Below, piece after piece: positions 8,076 to 36,249 of a stretch of 64,000 nt of DNA (position 1 is its first letter; each line of letters starts with the position of its first letter). Made by a program: the position numbers and the translations under genes. Origin of the DNA: Candidatus Rokuibacteriota bacterium (GTDB lineage: Bacteria; Methylomirabilota; Methylomirabilia; Rokubacteriales; DASRDR01). The stretch lies in contig JBIOTN010000067.1 in NCBI GenBank assembly GCA_044866005.1, positions 4,899 to 68,898 of the forward strand, given 5' to 3'. The notes beneath the pieces were generated by a model. The model did no database searches, was not told where the DNA came from, and saw nothing but the letters and a program-made list of their open reading frames with translations.

Positions 8076-8096
8076 GGTCTTTCCTCCTTGCACGCG

Positions 8097-9847: not shown

Positions 9848-9882
9848 GTTGACCCTGGCCGGCGCCGCGCCTAAGATGGGCC
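9848..9882 (+). promoter_or_regulatory. Candidate sigma70 promoter for the cyclase gene
   Basis: TTGACC, 17-nt spacer, TAAGAT, about 30 nt upstream of the ATG. Confidence 0.3.
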
Positions 9883-9913
9883 GACTTCGCGTTCCCGTCG
9901 CTGGAGCGCCGGC

Positions 9914-12900: not shown

Positions 12901-13468
12901 GCTGGTGAAGCTCGGACTGGCCCATCTCTGGCGAGGCGACCACGGCCGCGCGCAACAGGCGTTCCAGCAGGCGTGGGGACTGCTGGAGGACGATCCGTGG
13001 GCCCGCTGGCGCTGGCACGTCCCGCTCCTGGCGGCGCTCGGCGAGATGGCGCTCACCGAGCACCGGCTCGAGGAGGCCTGGGGGCATGCCACTCGTTCCC
13101 TGGAGCTGGCCACCGAGTCGGACTCGCGCAAGCACGTGACCCGGGCTCAGCGTCTTCGAGGCCAGATCCTGGCGGCGCAGGGACGGCTCGAGGACGGGGC
13201 ACGCGCGCTCGAGGTGTCGGTCACGCTGGCCGAAGCCCTGGGGACGCCGCGCGAGGTGTGGATGGGGAAAGCGGCGCTCGCGGACGTGCTGGCGCGACTG
13301 GGCCGGGACAGGGACGCCGAGCGGCTCCTCGCCCAGGCCGCCGGAACGATCGACTCGATCGCGGAAAAGCTCACCACGCCGGGCCTGCGCCGGAGCTTCC
13401 TCGGCGGCGGCCCGGTCCTGGACGTCTACCGAGCGCTGGGGCGCCGCCCGCCTCCGAACGCGCCATGA
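9914..13468 (+). CDS. Class III adenylate/guanylate cyclase with N-terminal double zinc-ribbon and C-terminal AAA-ATPase/TPR regulatory region
   Basis: CxxC-x-CxxC ribbons; cyclase catalytic motifs (VLFADLAGFT..GDGVMALFG); Walker A GEAGIGKS; 1184 aa. Confidence 0.9.
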   Translation: MQCARCHVENREGRRFCAECGAPLSLACPACGFTNEAGEKFCGGCGQRLAAPAVGEPTAAPGRAVSRDDHQRRITSYTPKHLAEKILKARSALEGERRHVSVLFADLAGFTTLAERLDPEDVHQIIDRCFESITAEVHRFEGTINQYTGDGVMALFGAPIAHEDGPRRAVHAALAIQRAVREESRKLQAERGLTLDLRVGVHTGPVVVGRIGDDLRMDYTAVGDTTNLAARLQQLARPGSVVVSEATHRLVGGFFETRDLGDVAVKGHDPVRAFEVLRPRGRRTRLDVAVERGLTPLVGRSRELAILLDRFGEVKAGRGQVVFVAGEAGIGKSRLVLEFRRALAQAGAGVTWLEGRCVSFGQSIPFLPLIDQLRENFRIEEFDGEPEIIAKVEHGMRRMGELEAHIPYVRYLLAVDPGDPAISAMDAAARRKRMFDACRALAIRGAALRPVVFVFEDLHWIDTSTEEYLGSLMDSVAGVPLLLILTYRVGYTPPFGGRSFHTPLTLHSLSETESLTLAGRVLGSDDFPDELKTALMEKAEGVPLFVEEVTKTLLDLGVLRREDGEYRMVKGVSEVSVPDTIQGIIMARLDRLGEDGKRAVQLASVIGRQFLVRLLERIAGLSGRLEGLLAELKALEIIYEHALFPEPAYIFKHAVIQDVAYNSLLVQRRKELHKAVGYAIEELYADRLAEHHEELAHHFAQGEEWRKAMEYSLVAGDRAAQKFANAEAAKHYTRTLQAAYAVSPVPEPEVLAGLHVKHAAVRTLLADYEGAVSQYGAARALIQQTGNRKQEVEILMGLGFAYSFYHKPEPALEAVDEALAIAREIDDRSSQAACLVTRAEAVASGYGRVIEAASNIEEAVRLSEEIPNPLLRARVLVFTGRIVQWRGEFDRAIMVLEEGTEFARREHLGFLFGLGLFTLGHAHLAKGDFEAALRRYHELRHYAEGAGDKLYIVRAPNCLAGAHLELYDLDEAIRLNEEGDDVAKRLWPWPEPRGHSLVKLGLAHLWRGDHGRAQQAFQQAWGLLEDDPWARWRWHVPLLAALGEMALTEHRLEEAWGHATRSLELATESDSRKHVTRAQRLRGQILAAQGRLEDGARALEVSVTLAEALGTPREVWMGKAALADVLARLGRDRDAERLLAQAAGTIDSIAEKLTTPGLRRSFLGGGPVLDVYRALGRRPPPNAP

Positions 13469-13686
13469 TCCTCCCGCGGGGAGACCCAGAACAGATCGCC
13501 GGTCCGAGAAGCGAGCAGCCCCAGGCGAAAGGGAAGAGGCTCACCGCAGCGGGAGCGAGCCGGGCCGAGACCCGAGCAGATCAAGGACGCAGGACCGAGC
13601 GCGGCCGAGGCGTATGCCGCATACGTTGAGGCCGCGCGAAGGCCGAGGACGCCGAGATGCGACGGGTATCGGCCCGGCTGGCCCGG

Positions 13687-15534: not shown

Positions 15535-15729
15535 CGACTCTCCTTCGCTTCGCCGCGGCGTCGTTCAAACGCGCGAAATTTCGACTCCGAGCGTACTCGT
15601 CGGCCTCTGCGGTGTCAACCGCGCGCCGCGCTCGAGGCCGCGCACCCGCGCCGGGGAGACCGGTATACTGGGGCGGGGGCGGCCAAGACATCCCGTGCCC
15701 GTTTGCGCGAGCCGGAGAGGAGGAGCGCG

Positions 15730-16197
15730 ATGGCCGAGCTGATCCACGTCTCCCGGGTCAGGATCGTGAAGGACAAGGGGCCGGTGCGGCGCGCCTACAT
15801 CGAGCAGTTCCCGGACCCGGTGCGCTACGGCGTCCACGGCGGCATCAAAGACTTCTACGGGGTGGACCCGGTGGAGGAGCTGCCCACCACCCTCGACCAC
15901 GTGATCGCGGCGGTCGCAGGGTGAATGACCGGGACGCTAGCCGGGGCGCTAGCGGCGCGGAAGATCCCGACCCAGCCCGATCGCCTCTCCTCCGAGGTCG
16001 AGGGATTCATCGAGAACGTGGACGGCAAGCCCTTGATCACCCGGATCAAGGTCCACTACAAGCTCCGGGTCCCTCCGGGCAAGCGCGCAGAAGCGCTGCG
16101 GGCGATCGAGGTGCATGAGCAGGGCTGCCCGGCGTCCCAATCAGTCAGGCGCGGCATCGCGATCGAGTGGGACGGCGACGTGCACGAGGAGGCTTGA
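15730..16197 (+). CDS. OsmC/Ohr-family peroxiredoxin with in-frame TGA (15922-15924) at the peroxidatic Cys position; candidate selenoprotein
   Basis: The two ORFs 15730-15924 and 15925-16197 are in frame. The motif HVIAAVAG-[TGA]-MTGTLAGALAAR matches OsmC AAHAAC-FSMALS, and the second Cys GCPASQS is conserved. A hairpin lies 10 nt after the TGA. GAGGAGGAG RBS. Confidence 0.65.
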
Positions 16198-16314
16198 GCG
16201 CCACTCGGCCCGTCGCCGGCTCGCGGCCGCGCGCGCAGTGTTATCATTGAAGCGTCGAGGAGGCGTCGGGCCGCGTCGCGGGCCCGCAAACCAGTGGTTG
16301 CCCGGAGGTCCGAG

Positions 16315-17196
16315 ATGGACATCGGCACGTTGCGGTTGAAGGTCGGCTTCGCGGAGATGTTGAAGGGCGGCGTCGTCATGGACGTGACGACCGCCGAGCA
16401 GGCCCGGATCGCGGAGGACGCCGGCGCCTGCGCGGTGATGGCGCTGGAGCGGGTCCCCGCCGACATCCGCCGGGAGGGCGGGGTCGCCCGGATGGCCAGC
16501 GTCCGGAAGGTCCGCGAGATCATCGACGCCGTCTCCATCCCCGTCATGGCGAAGTGCCGCATCGGGCACTTCGTCGAGGCCCAGATCCTCCAGGCGCTCG
16601 GCGTGGACTACATCGACGAGTCCGAGGTCCTGACCCCCGCGGACGAGCACTTCCACGTGGACAAGTTCGCCTTCACCGTGCCCTTCGTGTGCGGCGCGCG
16701 GGACCTCGGCGAGGCCCTCCGCCGGATCGGGGAAGGGGCGGCGATGATCCGCACCAAGGGCGAGGCGGGCTCGGGGAACATCGTGGAGGCCGTGCGGCAC
16801 ATCCGAAAGGTCATCGGCCACATCAAGCGGCTCACGACGCTGGGCCCGGAGGAGCTGATGGCCGAGGCCAAGGAGCTCGGGGCGCCCTACGAGCTCGTCC
16901 GGTGGGTCGCGCGCGAGGGCCGGCTGCCGGTGCCGAACTTCGCGGCGGGCGGCGTGGCGACCCCCGCCGACGCGGCGCTCATGATGCAGCTCGGCGCCGA
17001 GGCGATCTTCGTCGGCTCGGGCGTCTTCAAGTCCGCCGACCCCGCCGCGCGCGCCCGCGCCATCGTCCAGGCGACGACCCACTACCGCGACCCGGACGTC
17101 CTGGCGAAGGTCTCGGAGGCGCTCGGCGAGGCGATGCCGGGCATCGAGACCTCCAAGCTGCCGGCGTCCGAACGGCTCGAGACGCGCGGCTGGTGA
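16315..17196 (+). CDS. pdxS: Pyridoxal 5'-phosphate synthase, lyase subunit
   Basis: Highly conserved PdxS sequence. Confidence 0.95.
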
Positions 17197-17279
17197 CCCC
17201 GGGCGCGGGCCCCGCGGCCGACGTCCCGGTCGAGGTGGACCCGGCCGGCCGGCCGTCGCGGGCGCCGGGTCGAGAGGGG

Positions 17280-17867
17280 ATGCGGATCGGGGTCCTGGCG
17301 CTCCAGGGGGACTTCGCCGCGCACACGCGGGCGCTCGGTCGCCTGGGCATCGAGGCGCCGGAAGTCCGGAAACCCGCCGAGCTCGCGCGCCTCGACGGCC
17401 TCGTCCTCCCCGGCGGCGAGAGCACGACCCTGCTCACGCTGATGGGCGAGGAGTTCCCGCCGGCGCTCCGCGCCTTCCACGCGGCCGGCAAGCCGCTCTA
17501 CGGGACCTGCGCGGGATTGATCGTGCTCGCCCGGGAGGTGCTCGGCCCGCGCCAGCCCTCCGTCGGGCTGATCGACCTCACGGTCGAGCGCAACGCGTAC
17601 GGCCGCCAGCGCGAGTCCTTCGAAGCGGAGGGCGAGGCGCGGCTCGGCGGCGCGCCCGCGCCGCTGCGCATGGTCTTCATCCGCGCCCCGCGTATCGTCC
17701 GCGCGGGGCCCGGCGTGACGACGCTCGCCACGTGGAAGGACGAGCCCGTGCTGGTCCGGGAGGGGCCGGTCCTGGCGAGCACGTTCCACCCCGAGTTGAC
17801 GGACGAGCTCGCCATCCACCGGTACCTGGCGCAGATGGTCGTGGCGGCCGGCCGGCCGTCGGGCTGA
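17280..17867 (+). CDS. pdxT: Pyridoxal 5'-phosphate synthase, glutaminase subunit
   Basis: Conserved PdxT with GTCAG catalytic Cys. Confidence 0.95.
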   Translation: MRIGVLALQGDFAAHTRALGRLGIEAPEVRKPAELARLDGLVLPGGESTTLLTLMGEEFPPALRAFHAAGKPLYGTCAGLIVLAREVLGPRQPSVGLIDLTVERNAYGRQRESFEAEGEARLGGAPAPLRMVFIRAPRIVRAGPGVTTLATWKDEPVLVREGPVLASTFHPELTDELAIHRYLAQMVVAAGRPSG

Positions 17868-17908
17868 CCGCCGCCACCTCGGTCCGTGCGAGGGCTCGGG
17901 AGGTGGCC

Positions 17909-19651
17909 GTGAGCCGATCGGGCAAGGCGGCGCGCGGGGCGCGGCGGCGACCGCGGGCGGCCCGGTCCCGGGCCGCGCGGCGGGGCAAGCCGCTCGAGCG
18001 GGGTCTCGCGCGGGGCGCGGCCAACTACGTCCCGCTCACGCCGATCTCGTTCCTCGCCCGCGCCGCCGGCATCTATCCGACCAAGGCGGCGGTGATCCAC
18101 GGCGAGCGGACGTACAGCTATGCCGAGCTCTTCGCCCGCTGCCGCCGGCTCGCCTCGGCCCTCGTCCGGCGCGGCATCGGCCGGGGGGACACCGTCGCGA
18201 TCATGGCCCCGAACGTCCCGGCCATGCTCGAGGCGCACTACGGCGTGCCGATGGCCGGGGCGGTGCTGAACGCGCTGAACTACCGCCTCGACGCCCGATC
18301 CATCGCCTTCATGCTCGAGCACGGCCGGGCCAGGCTCCTGATCACGGACACGGAGTTCTCGGCCACGATCGGCCCGGCGCTCGCCCTGGTGAAGCGTCCG
18401 CTGCCCGTCATCGACATCGACGACCCGCTCGGCGGCGAGGACCGGGCCGGGAAGTTGCTCGGGGAGACGGACTACGAGGCCTTCCTGCGGGAGGGCGATC
18501 CCGAGTTCGCCTGGCCGGCCCCCGCCGACGAGTGGCAGGCGATCTGCCTCCTCTACACCTCGGGGACGACGGGGGACCCCAAAGGCGTCGTCTACCACCA
18601 TCGCGGCGCCTACCTGAACGCCCTCGGCAACGCGCTCGCGTTCGGCCTGTCGCCGCGCACCGTCTATCTCTGGACCCTGCCGATGTTCCACTGTAGCGGC
18701 TGGACCTACACCTGGGCCGTCACGGCGGTCGGCGGGACGCACGTCTGCCTCCGCCGCGTGGATCCGGCGCGGGTCTTCCAGGCGATCCAGGCCCACGGCG
18801 TCACGCACATGTGCGGGGCCCCCGTCGTCATGACCATGCTCGTCCACGCGCCCGCCGAGGCGAAGGTGACATTCGACCACGTCGTGGAGATCGCGACCGG
18901 CGGCGCGGCCCCGCCGTCGGCCGTCATCCGGGCGATGGAGGCGATGGGCTTCCGGGTCACGCACCTCTACGGCCTCACCGAGACCTACGGGCCGGCCACG
19001 CTCTGCGCCTGGCAGGCGGGCTGGGACGGCCTCGGGCTCGCGGAGCGCGCCGCCCTCATGGCGCGCCAGGGGGTGGCCTACCCGACGCTCGGCGCGGTCA
19101 CGGTCGCCGAGCCCCGGACGCTGCGCCCGGTGCCGCGCGACGGCCAGACGATCGGCGAGGTGATGATCCGCGGCAACACCGTGATGAAGGGCTACCTCGG
19201 GAACCCGCGCGCCACGACCGAGGCGTTCCGGGGCGGGTGGTTCCACACCGGCGACCTGGCCGTCTGGCATCCCGACGGCTACATCGAGATCAAGGACCGG
19301 TCGAAGGACATCATCATCTCCGGCGGCGAGAACATCTCCTCGCTGGAGGTCGAGGAGGTCCTCTACCGCCATCCCGCGGTGATGGAGGCCGCCGTCGTCG
19401 CGAAGCCGGACGAGAAGTGGGGAGAGACGCCCTGCGCCTTCGTCACGCCGAAGCCCGGCGCCGGCGAGGTCACCGCCCGGGAGATCGTCGACTGGTGCCG
19501 CGCGAACCTGGCCCGGTTCAAGGTGCCGCGGCACGTCGTGTTCGGGCCGCTCCCCAAGACCTCGACCGGGAAGATCCAGAAGTTCGTCCTGCGCGAGCGG
19601 GCGAAGACGGGGCTCCCGTCGGAGAGCGGAGGCGGCGGGCGCGCGGAGTGA
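17909..19651 (+). CDS. AMP-dependent acyl-CoA synthetase/ligase
   Basis: AMP-binding motifs YTSGTTGDPKG and GWFHTGD; GTG start after GGAGGTGG. The start is uncertain. Confidence 0.85.
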   Translation: MSRSGKAARGARRRPRAARSRAARRGKPLERGLARGAANYVPLTPISFLARAAGIYPTKAAVIHGERTYSYAELFARCRRLASALVRRGIGRGDTVAIMAPNVPAMLEAHYGVPMAGAVLNALNYRLDARSIAFMLEHGRARLLITDTEFSATIGPALALVKRPLPVIDIDDPLGGEDRAGKLLGETDYEAFLREGDPEFAWPAPADEWQAICLLYTSGTTGDPKGVVYHHRGAYLNALGNALAFGLSPRTVYLWTLPMFHCSGWTYTWAVTAVGGTHVCLRRVDPARVFQAIQAHGVTHMCGAPVVMTMLVHAPAEAKVTFDHVVEIATGGAAPPSAVIRAMEAMGFRVTHLYGLTETYGPATLCAWQAGWDGLGLAERAALMARQGVAYPTLGAVTVAEPRTLRPVPRDGQTIGEVMIRGNTVMKGYLGNPRATTEAFRGGWFHTGDLAVWHPDGYIEIKDRSKDIIISGGENISSLEVEEVLYRHPAVMEAAVVAKPDEKWGETPCAFVTPKPGAGEVTAREIVDWCRANLARFKVPRHVVFGPLPKTSTGKIQKFVLRERAKTGLPSESGGGGRAE

Positions 19652-19680
19652 TGCCGCGCCGGCCGGGGGAAGGCCGAGCG

Positions 19681-20550
19681 TCAGGACGGCAGCCCGAACA
19701 GCGAGCTGACCCGCTGCGCCTCGACCATCGCCGCCATCTCCGCGTCGGGAGGACGGCGGCGGACGCGGCTCGCGGCCTCCAGGACCCGGGGAAGCAAGGC
19801 CAGGTCTGCCGGCGTGTCGAGGAAGACATCGGGCAGGCCGAGCGCCCAGTGCACCGCCCGGTCGATGTCGGCCGGCTCCTCGAGCGGCTGGTACCAGGTG
19901 GTGCGCGTCCGGTCTGCCGTGGCCCAGGGCCCGCGCGCGATGGCCTTGATGACCTGGACCGCGACCTGCCGCTCGCGGCAGATGCTCAGCAGTGCCTCGA
20001 CGTCCGCGCGGTAGCGCTCGCTCTGGGCCATCAAGAAGTTATACGGCAGCAGCACCGTGTCGAAGTCGAAGCGCGCGAGGCTGCGCTTGTGCATGGCGGG
20101 GATCGTCCAGCCGTGACCGGTCACCCCGATAAAGCGCGCGAGCCCCTGCTCGCGGGCCTCGATCGCCGCCTCCAGGGCGCCGCCCGGTCCCATGGCCTGC
20201 TCCCACTCGTCGGGGTGGCCCAGCGAGTGCAGCTGGATCAGGTCGACGTGGTCCACCCGGAGCCGGTCGAGCGAGCGGTGAAGCTCCTCGCGGGCGCCGT
20301 CGCGGGTGCGCATGGCGGTCTTCGTCGCGAGGAAGAACTCCTTCCGGTGCCCGGCCATCCACGGGCCGATGCGGAGCTCGGAGTCCCCGTACCGCGCCGC
20401 GGTGTCGATGTGGTTGACGCCGTGCCGCAAGAGCAGGTCCAGGGCGCGGTCGGCCTCCGCCTGCGGGCACCGGGCGAGGGCGGCCGCCCCGAAGATGGTC
20501 ACCGTGCTGAGGTGACCGGTGCGTCCGAAGGGTCGCCGTTCGATCATCAC
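19681..20550 (-). CDS. Aldo/keto reductase
   Basis: AKR-family sequence; 16 nt downstream of copA on the same strand. Confidence 0.85.
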
Positions 20551-20566
20551 GCGGCTCCTCGCGGCC

Positions 20567-23014
20567 CTAGAGCGCCAGCTTCCGCAGGCGGAGGGCGTTG
20601 CCGACGACGGAGACGGAGCTGACGCTCATCGCCGCGCTGGCGACCACCGGGCTCAAGAGCAGACCGAAGACGGGGTAGAGGACGCCGGCGGCGAGCGGGA
20701 CGCCGAGCGAGTTGTAGACGAAGGCGAAGAAGAGGTTCTGCCGGATGTTCCGCATCGTGGCCCGGCTCAGCCGGCGGGCCCGCACGATGCCCCGCAGGTC
20801 GCCCTTGACCAGGGTCACCGCGGCGCTCTCCATGGCGACGTCCGTCCCCGTCCCCATCGCGATCCCCACGTCGGCCTGGGCCAGCGCCGGCGCGTCGTTG
20901 ATGCCGTCACCCGCCATCGCCACCCGCCGGCCCTCGGCCTGGAGGCGCCGGACGACCTCGCCCTTCGCCGCCGGCAGGACCTCCGCCTCGACGCGGTCGA
21001 TCCCGAGCGCGCGGGCGACGGCCTCGGCGGTCGTCCGGCTGTCGCCGGTGAGCATGACGACCTGGAGGCCCTCCTCGCGGAGCAGGCGGATCGCCTCGGC
21101 GCTGGACGGCTTGATGGGGTCGGCGACGCCGAGCAGGCCGGCCGCCCGGCCCTCCACGACGACGAACACGACGGTCTGCCCGTCCTGGCGGAGCTTCTCC
21201 GCCTGACCGGCCAGGACCCCGGGCGCGACGGCCAGCTCGTCCAGCAGCCGCGCGTTCCCGAGCGCCACCGCCCGGCCGTCCACGCGGCCCACCACGCCCT
21301 TGCCGGTGAGCGACCGGAACTCGGTCAGCTCGCCGAGCGCGAGGCCGCGCGCGGTGGCCCCCGCGACGATCGCCGCGGCGAGCGGGTGCTCGCTCCCCCG
21401 CTCGAGCGTCGCGCCGAGGCGCAGGAGCTCCCCGTCGGCGAGGGGCGGCAGGACCACGATGGAAGTCAGGCGCGGCTTGCCCTCCGTGAGGGTGCCGGTC
21501 TTGTCCACCACCACCGTGTCCACCCGCTCCATGATCTCCAGGGCCTCGGCGTGCTTGACGAGCACGCCCGCCGTCGCGCCCCGGCCCGTGGCGACCATGA
21601 TGGACATCGGCGTGGCCAGGCCGAGCGCGCACGGGCAGGCGATGATCAGCACGGCCACCGCGTTCACGAGCGCGTAGGCCAGGCGCGGCTCGGGCCCGAC
21701 GAGCGCCCACGCGGCGAAGGTCAGCCCCGCGATCGCCACGACCGCCGGCACGAAGTACGAGGAGACCACGTCGGCCAGACGCTGGATCGGCGCGCGCGTG
21801 CGCTGGGCTTCGCCGACCATGCGCACGATCTGGGCGAGGAGCGTGTCGCTGCCGACCCGCTCGGCCCGCATGACGAAGCTCCCCGTGCCGTTCACGGTTC
21901 CGCCGGTCACCCGGCTCCCCGGCGTCTTCTCCACGGGGACGGGCTCGCCCGTCAGCATGGACTCGTCGACGGCGCTCGCGCCCTCGAGCACGACGCCGTC
22001 CACGGGGACGCGCTCGCCCGGGCGGACGCGGAGCCGGTCGCCGGGGGCCACCTGCTCGAGCGGCACGTCTTCCTCCGCCCCGGCCTCGCCGAGGCGTCGC
22101 GCCGTCTTCGGCGCCAGCCCCAGCAGCGCGCGGATCGCGCTGCTGGTCCGGCTGCGGGCGCGGAGCTCGAGGACCTGCCCCAGCAGCACCAGCACCGTGA
22201 TGATCGCCGCCGGCTCGAAGTAGACGGGAACCTCGCCGCCGTGGCCGCGGAAGGCGGGCGGGATGAGCCCGGGCGCGAGCGTCGCCGCGACGCTGTACCC
22301 GTACGCCATGCCGATCCCGAGCGCGATGAGCGTGAACATGTTCAGGCTGCGGTTCACGATCGAGGCATAGCCGCGCTGGAAGAGCGGCCAGCCGCCCCAG
22401 AGGACCACCGGCGTGGCGAGGGCCAGCTCGAGCCAGGTCACCGCGCGCATCGACAGCGCGCGCTGGACCGGCTGCCCGGGCCACATGTCCGACATCGCGA
22501 GGACCAGGATGGGGACGGAGAGGAGCAGGCTCACCCGGAAGCGGCGGGACATGTCCACGAGCTCCGGGCTCACCTCGGCCTCGGCCGTCACCGTCCGGGG
22601 CTCGAGCGCCATCCCGCAGATCGGGCAGAGGCCCGGCTCGGGCCGGACGATCTCCGGGTGCATCGGGCAGAAGTACTCGGTCCGGAATGCGGGTGCCGCG
22701 GCGACCGGCGGCTCGAGCGCCATCCCGCACTTCGGGCACGCGCCGGGTCGGGGCTCGCGGACCTCGGGGTCCATCGGGCACGTGTAGCCGCCGGCCGTCG
22801 CCTCCGCCGCCGCGGCGCTCCGGCGCTCGCCGGAGGGCGCCACGTAGCGCCCGGGGTCTGCGCGGAACCGCTCGAGGCAGGAGGGGTGACAGAAGAGGTA
22901 CGTCCGGCCGCCGTAGGCGTGGCGTCCGGCGGCCTCGGCCGGCTCCACCGTCATCCCGCAGACGGGGTCCGTCGCCGCCTGTCCGATCGCCTGCGCCCGC
23001 TCGTCCCCTGTCAT
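20567..23014 (-). CDS. copA: Cu(I)-translocating P1B-type ATPase with N-terminal YHS/TRASH-type metal-binding domains
   Basis: CPC, DKTGT and GDGINDAP motifs; the N-terminus has CGM...FC YHS-like motifs rather than a classical HMA domain; RBS GAGGTGA. Confidence 0.9.
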
Positions 23015-23187
23015 GGCGTCACCTCTACAGAGGGTATACCCGGGCCCGGAGATGCGGGAGCCCCGCGCGGGGGCCGCGCCCGGCCGGCGGAGTGCAAGAC
23101 GCTGCCGGCGCCGGGCGCCGGATGTAGAATGAGCGGGTCCGCGGCGACTGCTGTACTCCGCCTTCGGAGTCTTGGAGGACCACGCGC

Positions 23188-24679: not shown

Positions 24680-25252
24680 ATGCGCCGGCTCGCGGGACCG
24701 TCGATCGTGGCGCTCGCGCTCCTGGCCGGCGTCCCCCGGAGCGGGCCGGCCGCCCCACCGGGCCTCCCGCGACTCGGGGCCGCCCCGAACTTCGCCCTGA
24801 CGACCCACCTGAATGACCGCGTCTGGCTCACCCAGCTCCGCGGCCGCGCCGTCGTCCTCACGTTTACCTGCGCGACATGTGGAGCGTGTCCCACCGTCGT
24901 GCCGACCCTCGCCGAGGTGGCGCGCGGGCTGGGCGAGGCGGCGGGCGGACGGGTCTTCTTCGTCGCGGTGACGGTCGACCCGCGCCATGACAGCGCCGCC
25001 GTCCTCCGGGACTTCGCCCGGGCGCACGGTCTGAGCCCGCTGGCGTGGCTTCTCCTCACCGGGACGCCGGCCGAGGTGGAGGTGGTGGCCCGGCGCTTCG
25101 GCGTGGAGGCCCGGGCCGACGCCTTGTCCGAGGCCGCCTGCCCGGTGGTGCTGATCGACCGCACCGGCACGATCCGCGTGCGCTACCGGGGCCCGGAGCT
25201 CGGCCGCCTCCGCTTCGACCTGGTGCAGCTTCTCGCCGAGCCTGCCGGCTAG
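24680..25252 (+). CDS. SCO1/SenC-family copper chaperone (thioredoxin fold)
   Basis: CxxxC motif FTCATCGAC; signal/anchor sequence. Confidence 0.8.
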   Translation: MRRLAGPSIVALALLAGVPRSGPAAPPGLPRLGAAPNFALTTHLNDRVWLTQLRGRAVVLTFTCATCGACPTVVPTLAEVARGLGEAAGGRVFFVAVTVDPRHDSAAVLRDFARAHGLSPLAWLLLTGTPAEVEVVARRFGVEARADALSEAACPVVLIDRTGTIRVRYRGPELGRLRFDLVQLLAEPAG

Positions 25253-25275
25253 CCGGTCAAAAGACTTGACCTTCC
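25203..25275. repeat. Direct repeat copy 1 (about 73 bp). Covers the 3' end of the SCO1 gene and a TTGACC box.
   Basis: About 92% identical to 25993-26066. Confidence 0.8.
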
Positions 25276-25387
25276 GGTCCTCACAGCACAGAGCTCCAGC
25301 CTTCCTTGGCGCTTGCGGGCGCAAAAGGAAGGGACTGCCGCATGGCGGCGTGGTAGGATATTTCATCATACCCGGGAAGGTTGCCAC

Positions 25388-25630
25388 GTGCCGAAGACCA
25401 AGGTCGCCATCACGCTCGATGCCGAGCTGCTTGATCGGGTCGATGAACTGGTCGCCCGACGAGAGTTCCGCAATCGGAGCCAGGCCATCGAGGCCGCGCT
25501 CGCCGAGAAGCTGGCAAGGGCCCGACGGACGCGCCTGGCGCGGGAGTGCGCAAAGCTCGACCCCGAGGAGGAGAAAGCCCTCGCCGAGGAAGGCCTCGCC
25601 GGGAGCTCTGACTCGTGGCCCGAATACTGA
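25388..25630 (+). CDS. Ribbon-helix-helix (CopG-family) antitoxin
   Basis: GTG start after GGGAAGG; KVAITLDAELLDRVDEL RHH motif; overlaps the mazF start. Confidence 0.7.
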   Translation: MPKTKVAITLDAELLDRVDELVARREFRNRSQAIEAALAEKLARARRTRLARECAKLDPEEEKALAEEGLAGSSDSWPEY

Positions 25631-25950
25631 GGGGCGAGATCCGCTGGGCCGACCTCAATCCAGTTCGCGGCCGGGAACAGGCTGGGCTCCGACCCATTCT
25701 GGTCCTGAGCCATGACGTGTTCAATGAGCGCTCCGCGACGGTCATTGCCGTCGCCCTGACCAGTCGAGAGCCCCGCGCTGGGTTTCCGCTCACGCTCGAG
25801 AGTAACGCCCGGGGTTTGCCGAAGCGATCGTGGATCCGGATCAGCCAAGTCCGGACACTTTCCGTGGAGAGGATCGGGCGGCGTCTGGCGCGCGCCTCTG
25901 AGGAAGAGGTTGATCGCGTCGTGGAGGGCCTCAGCGAGATAATCGGCTGA
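25615..25950 (+). CDS. mazF: MazF/PemK-family toxin endoribonuclease
   Basis: RGEIRWADLNP..GREQAGLRPILVLS motif typical of MazF. Confidence 0.8.
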   Translation: MARILRGEIRWADLNPVRGREQAGLRPILVLSHDVFNERSATVIAVALTSREPRAGFPLTLESNARGLPKRSWIRISQVRTLSVERIGRRLARASEEEVDRVVEGLSEIIG

Positions 25951-25992
25951 CGGCGTGATCCACGGCGGTTCGCGTTGCCCGCACAGTCCGGG

Positions 25993-26066
25993 CCCGCCTC
26001 CGCTTCGACTTGATCCAGCTTCTCGCCGAGCTCGCCGGCTAGCGGGTCAAAAGACTTGACCTTCCC
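25993..26066. repeat. Direct repeat copy 2 (about 73 bp), continuous with the CueR-box promoter
   Basis: About 92% identical to 25203-25275. Confidence 0.8.
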
Positions 26067-26085
26067 CTTCCTGGAAGCCGCACCG
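26055..26085 (+). promoter_or_regulatory. MerR/CueR-type promoter: TTGACC, 19-bp spacer containing CCTTCC-N7-GGAAGC
   Basis: Near-identical to the E. coli copA CueR operator (TTGACCTTCCCCTTGCTGGAAGG). Confidence 0.5.
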
Positions 26086-26167
26086 TGGCATCAATACGTC
26101 GGAGGAGAGGGTGGAGTACCGGGAAGAACACGAGACAGTGGAAACCGGGGGGGCGGAGGGATCGGCT

Positions 26168-26520
26168 ATGGCAGTGGCCAGCCGAGAGCTCATCGAGCGC
26201 TGTGTCGAAGAGTGTCTGAATTGCCTCAAGCTCGCGTCACGTTGCGTGGACTCGTGCCTGGCGGACGACCAGGCCAAGGCGATGGCGCGCTGCATCGGCT
26301 CTGCCTGGACTGCGCGGACCTCTGCCAGGCCTGTATCGCCACGCTCGGCCGGAACTCGGAACACGCGCGCGAGCTCTGCCGGGTGTTGGCGGACGTCTGC
26401 GAGGCGTGCGCGACGGAGTGCGAGAAGTTCGGCGACGGCATCATGCGCCAGTGCGCGGAAGCGTGCCGGCAGTGCGCCGAGGCCTGCCGCCAGGTGGCAC
26501 GGGTGCGGGCCGCCGCCTGA
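26168..26520 (+). pseudogene. Four-helix-bundle copper-binding protein (DUF326/Csp-like, Cys-rich) with a -1 frameshift near 26296
   Basis: The N-terminal half is in the 26111 frame and the C-terminal half in the 26056 frame. Restoring one C in tgcatc(c)ggctc gives ARCIRLCLDCADLC. Confidence 0.6.
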
Positions 26521-26617
26521 GGCCGGCTCCGCGGGGCGGGGCGGTGCGGCGTGCCGTGCCGTCCCGCCGCGCGTTCAGCGCCGGCCGCGCGAAAGCCGAC
26601 CGGCGCAAGGCCGGGGC

Positions 26618-26648
26618 TTGACATTCCAGTTAACTGGAAGGATTACCC
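26618..26648 (+). promoter_or_regulatory. MerR-type promoter: TTGACA, 19-bp spacer with perfect palindrome TTCCAGTTAACTGGAA
   Basis: Upstream of the merR-family gene at 26685. Confidence 0.5.
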
Positions 26649-26684
26649 TGTCTGTGTGAGCGATTCGACCAGGGAGAGCCGAGA

Positions 26685-27122
26685 GTGAGCACGCCCCTGA
26701 AGATCGGCGAGCTGGCCGCCAAGAGCGGGGTCGCGGCGAAGACCATCCGCTTCTATGAAGGGGCGGGCGTGCTTCCGGCCCCCAGCCGGGGGGCGAACGG
26801 CTACCGCCTCTACGGCGCCGACGCCCTGGATCTCCTGCGCTTCGTTCGGCAGGCGCGAGGCCTCGGTCTCACCCTCGGGGAGATCAAGGAGCTGGTCGCG
26901 ATCCGCCGGCGCGGGGAGATCCCCTGCCGGCACGTCTATCGGCTGATCGAGGAGAAGGCCGCGGAGTTCGAGCGCAAGCTGAAGGACCTCGCCGAGCTTC
27001 GGGCGGTCCTTCGCCGGAGCCTCCGGTCGGCGCCGCGGCCGTTCCCCCGCGCCGCCGTCTGTCCCCATATCGAGGCTGGGAGCCAGGGGGCTTTCGCCGT
27101 CTCCCGCCCCCGGAAGGCGTAG
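26685..27122 (+). CDS. MerR-family metal-responsive regulator (CueR-like)
   Basis: HTH KIGELAAKSGVAAKTIRFYE; its stop abuts the start of the ATPase gene. Confidence 0.8.
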   Translation: MSTPLKIGELAAKSGVAAKTIRFYEGAGVLPAPSRGANGYRLYGADALDLLRFVRQARGLGLTLGEIKELVAIRRRGEIPCRHVYRLIEEKAAEFERKLKDLAELRAVLRRSLRSAPRPFPRAAVCPHIEAGSQGAFAVSRPRKA

Positions 27123-29537
27123 ATGGCCCTGGCCAAGCTCCAGCTCAAGATTGGCGGGATGGCGTGCTCCTTCTGTGTCGAGACCATCAAGAAAGGCCTC
27201 GGCCGGATCGATGGGGTGGCCGAGGTCGACGTCAGCCTCGCCCACGAGGAGGCGCTGATCGCCTACGACCCCGCCCGGGTGCCGCCGACGCTCGTCCGCG
27301 ATACGCTCCGCAGCCTCGGCTACACGGTTCGGGACCCCACCAAGGTCCGCACGTTCGAGGACGAAGAGGCCGAGCTGGCCCGTGAGCGGGACCGCCTCAT
27401 CCTGGCGGGGGCGGCTGCATGGTCGGCGTTCATGGCCATGCTGCTCATGTGGGTGGGCCGGCACCACCCCGCGGTCCACTGGTTCATGGCCGCGCTCGGC
27501 GCGGGGATGGTCTTCGGGCCCGGCCTCTACATCCTGAAGATGGCGTGGGCCTCCGCTCGCCGGCGGATCCTCAACCAGCACGTCCTTATGGAGGTCTCGG
27601 CGTTCGGCGGCCTCGCCGGCGGGATCATGGGGCTCGTGAAGCCGGTGTTCCCGAGCTACGAGTTCTTCGGCGTCGCCGTCTTCGTCACGGCCTACCACAT
27701 TCTCGGTGGTTACACCTCGCTGCTCGTTCGGACACGCGCCTCCCAGGCGGTGAAGAAGCTGCTCTCGCTCCAACCGCTGACCGCGCGGGTCGTGCGCGAC
27801 GGCGCGGAGGTCGATGTCCCCATGGCCGAGGTCCGGAAGGGCGACCTCGTGCGGGTGCGGCCGGGCGAGCAGGTGCCAGTCGACGGGACCGTTGTGGAAG
27901 GCGCCTCGGCCGTGAACGAGAGCCTGGTCACTGGCGAGCCCCTGCCGCGCGAGAAGCTACCCGGCCAGGAGGTGATCGGCGGCTCGCTCAACACGTCGGG
28001 GACGCTGCTCGTCCGCGTCACCCGGGTCGGCGAGGAGAGCTTCCTCGAGCAGGTGGCGCGCCACATTCAGGAGGCGCGCGCGCTGAAGCCGGGCATCCTG
28101 CTGCTGCTGGACCGGATCCTGAGGTATTTCGTCCCCGGCGTGCTCGCCGTCGGCCTGGCGGCGTTCGGCTTCTGGTCGCTCGGCGCCTGGACGCTCTGGG
28201 GCGCGCCCGACTGGGACCGTGCCGCGTTCGCGGCGCTGGCGGTGTTCGTGATGGGCTATCCCTGCGCGCTCGGGATGGCCATGCCCCTGGCGATGATCCG
28301 CGGGGGCGGCGAAGCCGCCCGCCAGGGGATCCTCATGCGGAGCGCGGCGTCGTTCCAGGCCTTCAAGGACGTCTCGGTCGTCGTGCTCGACAAGACGGGA
28401 ACCATCACGCATGGCCAGCCTCGCGTCGTGGACATCGTCCCGGCCGGCGGTTGGGAGCCGGACGGCGTACTCCGGCTGGCCGCGGCCGCCGAGCAGCCCT
28501 CCGAGCACCCGCTCGGCCAGGCGGTGGTGAAGGCCGCGGAGGCGCGCGGTCTCCAGGTTCCTCAGGCGGCGGACTTCCAGGCGGTGGCCGGCCACGGTGT
28601 CCGGGCCACGACCGACGGCAAGCGGCTCCTCCTCGGGACGCTCCGCTTTCTCGCCGAAGCCGGCGTCCGGACGGACGGACTTGCTGCCGCCGCCGAGGCC
28701 CAGGAGGCCGGAGCCCGGACCGTGATCGCCCTGGCCGCCGACGGCCACCTCGCCGGCCTCATCGCCCTGGCAGATACCGTCAAGCCGGACGCGGCCGAGG
28801 CAGTCGCCCGCTTCCGCGCGGCCGCGATCGAGCCGGTGATGATCACCGGCGACAACCCGCGGACCGCCCGAGCGGTGGCCGAGCAGGTCGGGATCCGGCA
28901 AGTGCTCGCCCAGGTGCTGCCGCAGGACAAGGCGGCCCGGGTTCGGGAGCTCCAGCGCCAGGGCAAGCGGGTGGCCATGGTCGGGGACGGCATCAACGAC
29001 GCTCCGGCGCTCATGCAGGCCGACGTCGGGCTCGCGATCGGCGCCGGCACTGACATCGCCATCGAGTCGGCCGACGTGGTGCTGGTCGGCGAGCGGCTGA
29101 CCGCGGCGGTCGATGCCTACCACGTCGCGCGCCGGACGTACCGGAAGACGGTCCAGAACCTGACCCTCGCCTTCTCCTTCAACGGGGTCGGCGTCCCGCT
29201 GGCGACTACCGGGCTGTTGGCCCCGGTCTGGGCGATGGCCGCCATGGCGGCGAGCGTGACGGTGGTCCTGCTCAACTCCTTCCTCGGCCGCCTCGTGCCG
29301 CAGTGGCGGAGGCGGCAGCCGGAGGTGCAGCAGTTCGCCTTGACGGTCCCGAGCATCCACTGCGACGGCTGCGTGACGATGATTCGCGAGGAGCTGGTCA
29401 AGCTGCCGATGGTCGTGTCCGTGGACGGCGACCCGGTGTCGAAGCAGGTCGTCGTCACGACGCGCGACGGTCAGGGGCAGCTCGCCGCGGTCGAGGAGGC
29501 GATCGCGCGCCTCGGCCACGTGGTGGGGGAACGCTGA
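27123..29537 (+). CDS. P1B-type heavy-metal ATPase with N-terminal HMA (GMACSFC), atypical YPC TM motif and a C-terminal HMA-like domain (HCDGC)
   Basis: [13 protein letters not shown]; 804 aa. Confidence 0.9.
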   Translation: MALAKLQLKIGGMACSFCVETIKKGLGRIDGVAEVDVSLAHEEALIAYDPARVPPTLVRDTLRSLGYTVRDPTKVRTFEDEEAELARERDRLILAGAAAWSAFMAMLLMWVGRHHPAVHWFMAALGAGMVFGPGLYILKMAWASARRRILNQHVLMEVSAFGGLAGGIMGLVKPVFPSYEFFGVAVFVTAYHILGGYTSLLVRTRASQAVKKLLSLQPLTARVVRDGAEVDVPMAEVRKGDLVRVRPGEQVPVDGTVVEGASAVNESLVTGEPLPREKLPGQEVIGGSLNTSGTLLVRVTRVGEESFLEQVARHIQEARALKPGILLLLDRILRYFVPGVLAVGLAAFGFWSLGAWTLWGAPDWDRAAFAALAVFVMGYPCALGMAMPLAMIRGGGEAARQGILMRSAASFQAFKDVSVVVLDKTGTITHGQPRVVDIVPAGGWEPDGVLRLAAAAEQPSEHPLGQAVVKAAEARGLQVPQAADFQAVAGHGVRATTDGKRLLLGTLRFLAEAGVRTDGLAAAAEAQEAGARTVIALAADGHLAGLIALADTVKPDAAEAVARFRAAAIEPVMITGDNPRTARAVAEQVGIRQVLAQVLPQDKAARVRELQRQGKRVAMVGDGINDAPALMQADVGLAIGAGTDIAIESADVVLVGERLTAAVDAYHVARRTYRKTVQNLTLAFSFNGVGVPLATTGLLAPVWAMAAMAASVTVVLLNSFLGRLVPQWRRRQPEVQQFALTVPSIHCDGCVTMIREELVKLPMVVSVDGDPVSKQVVVTTRDGQGQLAAVEEAIARLGHVVGER

Positions 29538-35787: not shown

Positions 35788-36249
35788 ATGAGCGAGTTGA
35801 AGATCGGGGCGCTGGCCCGGCTCGCGGGCTGCACGGTCAAGGCCATTCGATTCTACGAGGCGAACGGCCTCCTTTTCGCCGCTGCGCGCAGCCCGGCCCG
35901 GTACCGGCTCTATACCGAGCGCGACCTCAGACAACTCCAATTCATCCAGCGTGCGAAGCTGATCGGGCTCCCGCTCACCAAGATCAAGAGTCTGGTCGTT
36001 CACGTGAGCGAGGAGCAGTGCGGGTGTCCCACGATCCGGCCTCAGCTGGAGCAGCTGATCCGCGAGCAGCTCAAGGAAGTGGGGGACAAGCTCGACCAGC
36101 TGGCGCTCCTCAAGCACGAGCTGGAGGGCTTGCTGGCAAAGATGCGTGGCGCCGTGCGACCACTTCCCCAAGAGCTCTGCGTGTGCGGCGCACAGCATCA
36201 CTCGGGGTTTGTCGGACTCGTGAAGCTCAAGCAAGGAGGACGGCGATGA
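35788..36249 (+). CDS. MerR-family heavy-metal-responsive regulator (Cys-rich effector domain)
   Basis: HTH IGALARLAGCTVKAIRFYE; C-terminal CGC and CVC. Confidence 0.8.
   Translation: MSELKIGALARLAGCTVKAIRFYEANGLLFAAARSPARYRLYTERDLRQLQFIQRAKLIGLPLTKIKSLVVHVSEEQCGCPTIRPQLEQLIREQLKEVGDKLDQLALLKHELEGLLAKMRGAVRPLPQELCVCGAQHHSGFVGLVKLKQGGRR

What the first reader, a model, noticed from the sequence alone, without database searches (positions are those of the whole stretch)
25203..26066. RHH-MazF toxin-antitoxin cassette flanked by ~73-bp direct repeats, inserted into a CueR-type promoter
The 3' end of the SCO1 gene plus a TTGACC box is duplicated: 25203-25275 versus 25993-26066, about 92% identical. 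The duplication brackets a 0.7-kb segment that carries only the antitoxin and mazF genes.

Only the downstream copy is followed by the intact CueR dyad (CCTTCC-N7-GGAAGC) that drives the Csp-like gene. The upstream copy retains the -35 box, but the operator half-site is replaced by TA-cassette DNA.

This looks like a site-specific or homology-mediated insertion of a mobile TA module into a copper-regulated promoter. It could put the TA module under, or stabilise, the copper island.
Basis: seen in the sequence. Interest (0 to 1): 0.55.

Follow-up and report, generated by a model that had tools for sequence, protein, structure and literature searches.

The report
Toxin-antitoxin cassette bracketed by duplicated target
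A small, self-contained mazEF-type toxin-antitoxin cassette from a widely travelled family sits between a copper-chaperone gene and a copper-island promoter in a Rokubacteria genome, bracketed by a real 72-base duplication of the insertion site; it is a tidy example of how such cassettes settle without breaking anything, but not a new kind of system.

Summary
Window 25204-25275 and 25994-26065 are 72-nt direct repeats (66/72 identical). They are the only high-identity direct repeat in the 64 kb. The same arrangement appears in several separate assemblies from other sequencing runs.

The repeats bracket 718 bp: a 73-nt spacer, a 602-bp RHH-antitoxin/MazF cassette and a 43-nt spacer. The repeat unit is the last 16 codons plus stop of an SCO1 gene, followed by the -35 box and left half-site of a CueR-type promoter. 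That promoter is 22/24 identical to E. coli PcopA. Only copy 2 keeps the full dyad.

- SCO1 is core genome, and the promoter belongs to a ~28-kb copper island that syntenic relatives lack. The duplication spans that junction, so it postdates the island.
- The cassette family is very widespread. Its conserved unit starts at its own palindromic operator/extended -10 and ends at the toxin stop. About a tenth to a sixth of relatives carry it as an integron cassette with attC sites. This copy has no attC, integrase or transposase.
- The Csp-like gene downstream carries a 1-nt frameshift.

Copper control of the TA is not supported. How the duplication arose is unresolved, and no TA-free allele was found.

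The parts
24680..25252 (+). SCO1/SenC-family gene (190 aa, intact). It is core genome: relatives L009 and L010 keep the malic enzyme-SCO1 synteny.
   Evidence: Pfam PF02630 E=4.7e-16. Synteny.
25204..25275 (+). Direct repeat copy 1: the last 16 codons plus stop of SCO1, then 23 nt ending in the -35 box (25266-25271) and left half-site CCTTCC (25270-25275). This promoter piece is a dead relic, with no dyad and no -10.
25276..25348 (+). 73-nt spacer that is neither repeated nor shared with other copies of the TA family. It contains a strong hairpin (about 25299-25331).
   Evidence: The blastn homology boundary to 80 related loci lies at 25344-25349. Fold: -55 kcal/mol, z=-2.5.
25349..25950 (+). 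Conserved mazEF cassette unit (602 bp), up to 89% identical in nucleotides to copies in unrelated contexts.
25351..25372 (+). The cassette's own control region: palindrome GGTAGGAT-N5-ATCATACC (family consensus GGTAKGAT-N5-ATCATACC), overlapping an extended -10-like TGgTAGGAT.
   Evidence: Alignment of upstream regions of 21 family members. Conservation begins exactly here. Function is inferred.
25388..25630 (+). Ribbon-helix-helix antitoxin gene (80 aa, GTG start). It overlaps the toxin gene by 16 nt.
   Evidence: PF01402 E=1.6e-9. MazE-antitoxin model NF050104 E=2e-4, below its cut-off.
25615..25950 (+). MazF/PemK toxin gene (111 aa, full length).
   Evidence: PF02452 E=7e-28. Best solved relative is B. 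subtilis EndoA/MazF, E=4e-17. Thousands of homologues, the closest at 85-95% aa identity.
25951..25993 (+). 43-nt spacer after the toxin stop. It is not shared with the family and is not attC-like.
25994..26065 (+). Direct repeat copy 2: a displaced, non-coding copy of the SCO1 3' end (reads RLRFDLIQLLAELAG*) plus the promoter's upstream part.
26056..26078 (+). Intact CueR-type promoter/operator: -35 TTGACC (26056-26061) and dyad CCTTCC (26060-26065)-N7-GGAAGC (26073-26078).
   Evidence: 22/24 identical to E. coli PcopA. Conserved upstream of the closest Csp homologue, L106.
26168..26520 (+). Csp-like four-helix-bundle copper-binding gene with a 1-nt deletion between 26296 and 26297 (frameshift).
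   Evidence: The repaired protein hits PF03860 and TIGR04401. The intact homologue L106 reads MARCIRLCLDC. The same frameshift is present in independent assemblies.
26685..29537 (+). MerR-family metal regulator (26685-27122) and P-type ATPase (27123-29537). Together with the promoter and the Csp-like gene upstream (26056-26520), they form the leftmost genes of a copper island of about 28 kb that runs to about 53.6 kb.

Best explanation
**What it is.** A horizontally spread, self-contained type II mazEF cassette: its own operator/extended -10, an RHH antitoxin and a MazF endoribonuclease. Together with 73 and 43 nt of unrelated flanking DNA, it was inserted at the junction between the core SCO1 gene and the left end of a previously acquired ~28-kb copper-homeostasis island.

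**What the event did.**
- It left two copies of a 72-bp stretch of the target: the SCO1 3' end, its stop codon, and the promoter's upstream element, -35 box and left CueR half-site.
- SCO1 therefore keeps its native C-terminus (copy 1).
- The CueR-type promoter of the Csp-like gene is complete (copy 2).
- The promoter fragment in copy 1 and the SCO1 fragment in copy 2 are inert relics.

**How it works (inferred).**
- The TA is expressed and autoregulated from its own palindromic operator, not by copper.
- As an addiction module it penalises loss of itself and of deletions spanning this island border.
- The repeats have since diverged. The longest identical run is 21 nt. That is below the roughly 23-27 bp reported as the minimum for efficient RecA recombination in E. 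coli (my recollection of the literature). Excision by homologous recombination should therefore now be inefficient.

**How the duplication arose (inferred, not shown).** My preferred route is a single illegitimate event that duplicated the target: fill-in of widely staggered breaks, or a replicative template switch. The main rival, recombination between two diverged alleles, is only slightly less likely.
For: **Structure and reproducibility.**

**The cassette is mobile and discrete.**
- Homology to 80 related loci starts at 25344-25349 and ends at 25950-25958.
- Flanks are unrelated between loci.
- The closest MazF relatives are 93-95% identical in aa. The closest non-self SCO1 is 67%, and the neighbouring malic enzyme is 84-86%.
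- TA GC3 is low.

**Own promoter/operator.** It is conserved across the family, with unrelated DNA upstream of it.

**The junction is lineage-specific and the island came first.**
- Syntenic relatives L009 and L010 have malic enzyme-SCO1 but no promoter, Csp, MerR or ATPase. Synteny with L010 resumes at about 53.76 kb.
- L106 has the same promoter-Csp-Trx-MerR module with no SCO1 upstream.
- Both repeat copies contain the SCO1/promoter junction.

**Copy 2 promoter.** It closely matches E. coli PcopA.

**No recombination machinery.** No attC, terminal inverted repeat, integrase or transposase was found.

**An independent parallel.** L040 (GC 70%) has the same family's cassette bracketed by a 50-nt, 90% repeat that spans the stop codon of the upstream ORF.
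Against: - No TA-free (empty-site) allele was found, so insertion is inferred from structure alone.
- A 72-bp target duplication is far longer than any transposase-type duplication I know of.
- No recent example with 100%-identical repeats was seen. All cases are 87-93%.
- The five coding differences between the copies fall in only three codons: one synonymous, one Val/Ile, one Pro/Leu. The chance of that under random placement is p=0.04. This hints that copy 2 diverged as part of a working SCO1 allele, which favours the two-allele rival.
- Flanking duplications are seen in only a minority of family members. The same-locus control was itself not clean.
- Addiction and stabilisation are inferred from family membership, not tested.
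Confidence: 0.6

Rival explanations
1. **Two-allele recombination.** The two repeat copies come from two diverged strains. A TA-bearing fragment or circle from a related strain carried its own copy of the SCO1-3'/promoter junction. It integrated either by a single homologous crossover (Campbell-type), or by homology-facilitated illegitimate recombination with a homologous anchor in the island and an illegitimate join just after TTGACCTTCC. One copy is donor-derived and the other recipient-derived. The roughly 8% divergence reflects strain divergence, not age.
For: - The differences are structured by codon: synonymous, Val/Ile, Pro/Leu, five differences in three codons, p=0.04.
- All comparable cases show 87-93% identity and never 100%.
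- GC and GC3 are lower from the TA through the first half of the Csp gene, up to the frameshift. That would fit a foreign patch ending near 26296.
- Duplications of variable length (50-433 nt in the window, L040 and L064) fit homology-length-dependent integration.
Against: - It needs a donor that already had the TA next to the same lineage-specific junction, so the first insertion is still unexplained.
- No such donor allele exists in 5.8 billion proteins or in the fetched loci.
- The codon-clustering and GC3 signals are weak: p about 0.04 for the first, and about 1.7 standard errors by my rough estimate for the second.
Confidence: 0.3
2. **Remnant of a site-specific integrative element** (att-flanked mini-island, CIME-like). 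An element that targets the 3' end of SCO1 integrated with a tyrosine recombinase and supplied a replacement 3' end, giving attL and attR. It was later reduced to the one module that resists deletion, the TA. Alternatively it is mobilised in trans.
For: - The geometry is that of classical islands: an intact target gene, with a displaced partial 3' copy at the far end of the insert.
- Identical blocks of 16, 16 and 21 nt could hold a crossover core.
- L040 shows the same stop-codon-spanning geometry.
Against: - No integrase or excisionase lies in the 718 bp, and none was found among the ORFs scanned across 20.5-54.6 kb.
- The repeat includes a lineage-specific junction with island promoter sequence. 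That is an unlikely conserved att site.
- There is no third copy at the island's far end.
- The repeats in L040 and the window are unrelated in sequence.
Confidence: 0.07
3. **Integron-integrase insertion at a secondary site.** The cassette arrived as an integron gene cassette and was inserted by IntI outside an integron.
For: In roughly 8-14 of the 80 relatives the same cassette is bounded by attC-type sites. A canonical 60-nt attC sits at the toxin stop in L065 and L088, with a similar site in L058. The motif ...GTCGGCTGCA...GTTRRRY lies 21-28 nt upstream of the operator and 55-78 nt after the stop in others. The cassette's homology limits coincide with integron cassette limits.
Against: - The window copy has no attC. 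The 43 nt after the stop are too short and lack the RYYYAAC/GTTRRRY cores.
- To my knowledge, IntI-mediated insertion does not duplicate the target.
- No intI gene was found in the window.
Confidence: 0.03

Closest known systems
B. subtilis-type MazEF (EndoA/EndoAI; PDB 4ME7, 4MDX, 1NE8), a type II toxin-antitoxin system
   Same: - A PemK/MazF-fold toxin (E=4e-17 to EndoA), preceded by a small ribbon-helix-helix antitoxin in an overlapping two-gene operon.
- In the alignment, the toxin keeps an Arg and a Thr at the positions I recall as catalytic in B. subtilis MazF. That mapping is from memory.
   Different: - Identity to the solved proteins is modest.
- The operator is a family-specific palindrome, GGTAKGAT-N5-ATCATACC.
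- Toxicity, cleavage specificity and neutralisation are untested.
Toxin-antitoxin gene cassettes of sedentary chromosomal integrons (for example the Vibrio cholerae superintegron; PMC13108822)
   Same: - A compact cassette running from promoter to stop codon, carrying its own promoter, found in many contexts.
- Several members of this very family are bounded by attC sites.
- A presumed role in preventing loss of neighbouring DNA.
   Different: - The window copy has no attC, no integrase and no array.
- It is bracketed by a duplication of the host target (a gene 3' end plus part of a promoter), not by recombination sites.
Genomic islands or integrative elements integrated in the 3' end of a gene (attL/attR direct repeats), and their integrase-less derivatives (cis-mobilisable elements)
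   Same: Direct repeats that contain the 3' end of the target gene. The gene is intact on one side, and a displaced partial copy lies on the other.
   Different: - The element is only 0.7 kb and has no recombinase.
- The repeats are 92% identical, not identical.
- The repeat covers a lineage-specific junction rather than a conserved att core.
CueR-regulated copA promoter of E. coli (MerR-type promoter with a 19-bp spacer)
   Same: - CTTGACCTTCCCCTT(G/C)CTGGAAG(G/C): 22/24 identical.
- The same -35 box and the same CCTTCC-N7-GGAAG dyad geometry.
   Different: - The -10 position reads CACCGT, against TAACCT in E. coli.
- It drives a Csp-like gene that is frameshifted here.
- Neither MerR-family protein in the window reaches the CueR family cut-off.

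Membership tests
Type II MazEF/PemIK toxin-antitoxin | Toxin with the PemK/MazF domain, full length | tested here: met
   PF02452 E=7.1e-28, profile positions 2-108 of 109. PDB EndoA E=4e-17. Same length (111 aa) as the family members at 85-95% identity.
Type II MazEF/PemIK toxin-antitoxin | Small antitoxin gene immediately upstream, in the same operon | tested here: met
   80-aa RHH_1 protein (E=1.6e-9), overlapping mazF by 16 nt. The same pair is called in all related loci.
Type II MazEF/PemIK toxin-antitoxin | Toxicity of MazF, neutralisation by the antitoxin, and autoregulation at the operator | not testable with these tools
   A conserved palindrome at the promoter is consistent with autoregulation but does not prove it.
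Integron gene cassette | attC site (RYYYAAC ... GTTRRRY imperfect palindrome, about 57-141 nt) at the 3' end of the cassette | tested here: not met
   The pattern-plus-complementarity scan did not flag the window. It did flag L065 and L088, with 0 of 610 control positions flagged. The 43 nt after the stop contain no core sites. No covariance-model search for attC was run.
Integron gene cassette | Integron integrase or an array of cassettes nearby | tested here: not met
   No integrase among the ORFs scanned with Pfam between 20.5 and 54.6 kb. Neighbours are SCO1 and copper-island genes. Not every small ORF was scanned.
Transposon or insertion sequence | Transposase, terminal inverted repeats and a short target duplication (to my knowledge about 2-15 bp) | tested here: not met
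   The insert holds only the two TA genes. No inverted repeat lies at the insert ends. The duplication is 72 bp.
Site-specific integrative element (att-flanked island) | Direct repeats that include the 3' end of the target gene | tested here: met
Site-specific integrative element (att-flanked island) | Tyrosine or serine recombinase encoded by the element | tested here: not met
   None in 25276-25993, and none found in the island ORFs scanned.
CueR/MerR-type copper-responsive promoter | -35 box, 19-bp spacer and CCTTCC-N7-GGAAGG dyad within the spacer | tested here: met
   Copy 2: TTGACC at 26056-26061 and the dyad at 26060-26078. It is 22/24 identical to E. coli PcopA. Copy 1 has only the -35 box and the left half-site.
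CueR/MerR-type copper-responsive promoter | A cognate CueR regulator, and copper-dependent activation | tested here: inconclusive
   There are two MerR-family proteins (26685-27122 and 35788-36249). Both score below the CueR equivalog cut-offs and score similarly or better on the MerR, ZntR and CadR models. Induction cannot be tested here.
Csp-type four-helix-bundle copper storage protein | Intact Cys-rich four-helix-bundle ORF | tested here: not met
   The reading frame is broken by a 1-nt deletion at 26296/26297.

The most novel reading that the evidence does not exclude
An integron-type mazEF cassette family has escaped integrons. In Rokubacteria-like, high-GC genomes it colonises chromosomal sites by a recombinase-independent route. 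That route leaves 50-72-bp duplications of the target spanning the stop codon of the upstream gene, seen twice independently (this window and L040). The addiction module then protects the duplication from collapsing. This would be an undescribed mode of toxin-antitoxin cassette mobility. It may extend to other TA families, such as the DUF4258-type pair in L101, where the bracketing repeat is likewise the 3' end of a neighbouring gene. The HicAB (L103) and VapBC-like (L084) cassettes are also bracketed by long locus-specific repeats, but of unclassified nature.
Probability: 0.15. Interest if true: 0.6.

Novelty: new variant of a known kind. Interest (0 to 1): 0.35.

Why it matters
How chromosomal toxin-antitoxin modules move when they are not on plasmids, transposons or integrons is poorly understood.

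This locus gives a clean, reproducible example. A cassette with sharply defined limits, whose relatives are integron cassettes, sits outside any integron. It is bracketed by a long duplication of its target, so that neither the flanking gene nor the flanking promoter is damaged.

The cassette also marks the border of a large copper-resistance island in an uncultured soil phylum. That fits the idea that such modules guard accessory DNA.

If the long-duplication signature proves general, it would point to a specific insertion mechanism. It would also give a sequence signature for dating and tracing TA insertions in metagenomes.

As it stands this is a well-documented instance of a known phenomenon, not a new system.

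Tried and rejected
**Ideas tested and dropped**
- **Assembly artefact.** Rejected. Several independent assemblies are identical across both copies, and no exact match longer than 21 nt links the copies.
- **A longer SCO1 remnant upstream of copy 2.** An SCO1 profile found nothing beyond RLRFD.... The nucleotide extension is only p about 0.03. Not adopted.
- **A third repeat copy as a far-end att site of the island.** None found. There is only a 16-nt inverted match at 53043-53058.
- **A universal short target duplication for the family.** The longest exact matches between flanks in 48 loci do not differ from shuffled pairings, apart from cases already known.
- **Copper control of the TA through the copy-1 -35 box.** Rejected on geometry and on the cassette's own promoter.

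**Searches that found nothing useful**
- **Empty site in relatives.** The nearest SCO1 outside this population is 67% identical. All contigs with the exact SCO1, MazF or MerR protein carry the TA.
- **The TA on known plasmids.** No tblastn hit at E<=1e-20 in 72,556 plasmids.
- **tRNA or known RNA families as integration targets.** None in the window.
- **Literature on TA cassettes flanked by long target duplications.** Three full-text searches found nothing directly relevant. Pandey & Gerdes 2005 is not held.

**Enrichment test for flanking repeats around TA cassettes**
- The Rokubacteria-only control was clean: 0 positives in about 470 tests outside one repetitive gene.
- The control within the TA loci themselves gave 13 positives in 418 tests.
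- About half of the eight loci with control positives turned out to be other TA cassettes bracketed by repeats, one of them by attC sites. The statistic is therefore suggestive but not clean.
Full report
**1. The observation**

The repeat finder reports one family of two 72-nt copies, 25204-25275 and 25994-26065, 92% identical and 790 nt apart.

- The six differences lie at repeat positions 17, 20, 22, 39, 40 and 51. Identical runs are 16, 2, 1, 16, 0, 10 and 21 nt.
- The shared 21-mer occurs only twice in the window even with three mismatches allowed, against none in shuffles.
- A blastn-short search finds no third copy.
- In a whole-window scan it is the only direct repeat of at least 30 nt above about 85% identity. 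All the others are 60-83% similarities between paralogous genes.

Copy 1 is the last 16 codons and stop of a 190-aa SCO1/SenC gene, plus 23 nt ending in TTGACCTTCC. Copy 2 is followed by CCTTCCT-GGAAGC, which completes CCTTCC-N7-GGAAGC.

Between the copies lie an 80-aa ribbon-helix-helix gene (25388-25630) and a 111-aa PemK/MazF gene (25615-25950). They overlap by 16 nt.

Contigs from another MAG (GCA_044870165.1) and from separate Logan assemblies of several sequencing runs are 99.9-100% identical, without gaps, over their overlap with the window. At least four of them span both repeat copies. The structure is real.

**2. The setting**

The organism is a member of Rokubacteria/Methylomirabilota (names attached to hits).

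Two species-level relatives, L009 and L010, keep the malic enzyme-SCO1 pair (84-86% and 62-65% aa identity). Neither has a Csp-like gene, MerR gene, P-type ATPase or TTGACCTTCC promoter downstream of SCO1. In L010, synteny with the window resumes at about 53.76 kb.

The intervening ~28 kb encodes:
- a MerR-family regulator, a P-type ATPase and HMA-domain metal-binding proteins;
- a MacB-type ABC system;
- DsbD-like and thioredoxin-like proteins;
- a second MerR-family regulator;
- a multicopper oxidase with a Met/Gly-rich repeat;
- a second SCO1-like protein, and DUF411 and YtkA-like proteins.

This is a copper-homeostasis island. No integrase or transposase was found among the ORFs scanned. 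There are no tRNA genes and no Rfam families.

The closest homologue of the Csp-like gene (L106, 75% aa) is followed by thioredoxin and a MerR gene 72% identical to the window's. It carries almost the same promoter (CTTGACCTTCCCGTTCCTGGAAGCCGGAC), but with a divergent gene rather than SCO1 upstream. The promoter therefore belongs to the island, and SCO1 to the core.

Both repeat copies contain the SCO1/promoter junction. The duplication therefore happened after the island was in place (inference).

**3. The promoter**

Copy 2 matches the E. coli K-12 copA promoter, fetched here for comparison, at 22 of 24 positions: CTTGACCTTCCCCTTGCTGGAAGG versus CTTGACCTTCCCCTTCCTGGAAGC. 'CueR-type' is thus justified for the operator.

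Three caveats apply:
- The -10 position is not canonical.
- Neither MerR-family protein in the window reaches the CueR family cut-off.
- The gene the promoter drives is broken. Compared with L106 (MARCIRLCLDC), the window lacks one base between 26296 and 26297. The same frameshift is present in the independent assemblies.

Copy 1 keeps only the -35 box and the left half-site. It has no dyad and no -10.

**4. The cassette**

The best 120 are 83-95% identical. The best non-self SCO1 is only 67% identical.

*Sharp limits.* Against 80 metagenome loci carrying relatives, nucleotide homology always begins at window 25344-25349 or later. It ends at 25950-25958 or earlier, and reaches 89% identity.

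*Unrelated contexts.* The flanks of these loci are almost never related to each other: 21 homologous pairs among 127 flanks.

*Own control region.* The 5' limit of conservation is a palindrome, GGTAKGAT-N5-ATCATACC, which overlaps an extended -10-like TGgTAtGAT. DNA upstream of it is unrelated between loci. The cassette is thus a portable unit running from operator to stop codon. I infer that it is expressed and autoregulated on its own. The -35 relic of copy 1 lies about 80 nt upstream and is irrelevant.

*Composition and closest structure.*
- GC3 of the TA genes is 0.74-0.80, against about 0.91 for called genes. The gene caller required GC3 above 0.80, so the contrast is somewhat inflated.
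- The best solved relative is B. subtilis EndoA/MazF, E=4e-17, whose partner is also a ribbon-helix-helix antitoxin (the partner fold is from my own knowledge).

**5. How the family moves elsewhere**

In a sizeable minority of relatives the cassette is an integron gene cassette.
- L065 and L088 have a canonical 60-nt attC (ACCTAAC...GTTAGG) starting at the toxin stop, against 0 of 610 control positions. L058 has a similar site.
- L041, L044, L049, L052, L053 and L071 carry the motif ...GTCGGCTGCA...GTTRRRY 21-28 nt upstream of the operator.
- L053, L057, L066 and L071 carry it 55-78 nt after the stop.
- L061 and L070 carry it 21 nt after the stop in inverted orientation.

TA cassettes with their own promoters are a known feature of chromosomal integrons (PMC13108822).

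The window copy is different. The 43 nt after the stop and the 73 nt before the operator have no attC cores and no relatives. The bracketing repeat is host sequence.

**6. Is the bracketing duplication a recurrent signature?**

Several family members have long direct repeats on both sides.
- **attC sites:** L088, L076 probably, and L058.
- **L064:** a whole small gene is duplicated around the TA (433 nt at 77%, with a 167-nt core at 93%).
- **L040 (GC 70%):** this shows the window's geometry. A 50-nt, 90% repeat spans the last four codons and stop of an 897-aa upstream ORF.

Controls gave a mixed picture:
- In Rokubacteria DNA there were no such repeats in about 470 tests, apart from one repetitive gene.
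- Within the TA loci themselves there were 13 positives in 418 tests.
- About half of the eight loci with control positives were other TA cassettes bracketed by repeats: HicAB in L103, a DUF4258-type pair in L101 (where the repeat is a gene 3' end), a VapBC-like pair in L084, and ParDE-like pairs between attC sites in L058.

There is no general short target duplication in the family. The pattern is therefore suggestive of something more general, but it is not established.

**7. Mechanism**

*Shown:*
- the structure;
- the discreteness and promiscuity of the cassette;
- the order of events (island first, then duplication);
- the absence of recombinase, attC and terminal inverted repeats.

*Inferred:* a single event placed the 718-bp segment and duplicated 72 bp of target, so that SCO1 and the promoter both stayed intact.

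I favour an illegitimate, duplicative insertion, by fill-in of widely staggered breaks or by a replicative template switch. At the right junction only about 3 nt of microhomology (CGG/GC) is visible by eye.

The main rival is recombination between two diverged alleles, either Campbell-type or homology-facilitated illegitimate recombination.
- *For it:* the five coding differences are confined to three codons, with one synonymous change and one Val/Ile change (p=0.04). No comparable locus has identical repeats.
- *Against it:* it presupposes a donor that already had the TA at this junction.

A reduced site-specific element and an IntI-mediated secondary-site insertion are less likely, for the reasons given in the membership table.

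**8. Function**

By family membership, the pair is a type II addiction module. MazF is an endoribonuclease, neutralised by a labile RHH antitoxin that also represses the operon.

Sitting at the core/island border, it would penalise deletions that remove it. That includes precise excision between the 72-bp repeats.

The repeats now share no identical run longer than 21 nt. In E. coli this is below the length reported for efficient RecA recombination (my recollection of the literature). The insertion is therefore probably locked in.

None of this was tested.

**9. Verdict**

It is a mobile TA cassette bracketed by a target duplication at a CueR-type promoter. It is not under copper control, it interrupts nothing, and no site-specific machinery is visible.
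- It is a new variant of known kinds (TA cassettes at island borders, integron TA cassettes). Its unusual feature is the long target duplication.
- Interest is moderate to low. It would rise if the duplication signature proves general.

Noticed in passing
window 26168-26520 (break between 26296 and 26297): The Csp-like four-helix-bundle copper-binding gene driven by the CueR-type promoter has a 1-nt deletion relative to its intact homologue L106. The same frameshift is present in independent assemblies, so it is probably a pseudogene rather than a sequencing error.
   Followed up: yes
window ~25253-53635 (also 8093-13679 and 15603-23182): Relative to the syntenic relative L010, the window carries a copper-homeostasis island of about 28 kb directly after SCO1, and two further blocks absent from L010. 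One of those blocks holds a YHS/HMBD P-type ATPase. No integrase or transposase was found among the ORFs scanned.
   Followed up: partly
window 26619-26650: A second MerR-type promoter lies upstream of the MerR-ATPase operon. It has a perfect 16-nt palindrome (TTCCAGTTAACTGGAA) whose half-site spacing differs from the CueR dyad. The adjacent regulator scores best on the MerR, CadR and ZntR models, not on CueR.
   Followed up: partly
L058 796-854 and 1970-2028; L065 and L088 at the mazF stop; L041, L044, L049, L052, L053, L057, L066 and L071 flanks: The same mazEF cassette family occurs as an integron gene cassette bounded by attC-type sites in many lower-GC metagenome contigs. The cassette limits coincide with the limits of nucleotide homology to the window copy.
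   Followed up: partly
L040 2681-2730 and 3388-3437: This is an independent high-GC locus of the same TA family. A 50-nt, 90% direct repeat spans the stop codon of an 897-aa upstream ORF, which is the same geometry as in the window.
   Followed up: partly
L103 5042-5187/5889-6034; L101 1969-2056/3022-3109; L084 75-114/896-935: Other toxin-antitoxin cassettes (HicAB, a DUF4258-type pair, a VapBC-like pair) next to the MazEF loci are also bracketed by long, locus-specific direct repeats of 87-95% identity. In L101 the repeat is the 3' end of a neighbouring gene.
   Followed up: no
L064 2042-2471 and 3595-4027: A whole 126/127-aa gene with its upstream region is duplicated on either side of the MazEF cassette (77% overall, with a 167-nt core at 93%).
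   Followed up: no
window 26573-26595: One contig of MAG GCA_044870165.1 ends at 26595. Another contig of the same MAG and one Logan contig start at 26573. The sequences are identical to the window, so the cause of the break (coverage or a strain branch) is unknown.
   Followed up: no
window 25495-25514 versus 25226-25241 and 26015-26034: A stretch of the antitoxin gene (GCTCGCCGAGAAGCTG) is the reverse complement of part of both repeat copies (16-20 nt, 90-94%). The motif CTCGCCGAG is common throughout this GC-rich window, so this is probably chance.
   Followed up: partly
window 53043-53058 (minus strand): A 16-nt exact inverted match to repeat copy 2 (positions 31-46) lies in the gene-poor gap at the right border of the copper island (E=8e-4 within the window). 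It is GC-rich and near-palindromic, and its significance is unclear.
   Followed up: no
window 44327-44443: A tandem Met/Gly-rich repeat (GGMGGMMG-like) lies inside the multicopper oxidase gene 43721-45265. From my own knowledge, it resembles the methionine-rich copper-binding segments of CueO/CopA-type oxidases.
   Followed up: no
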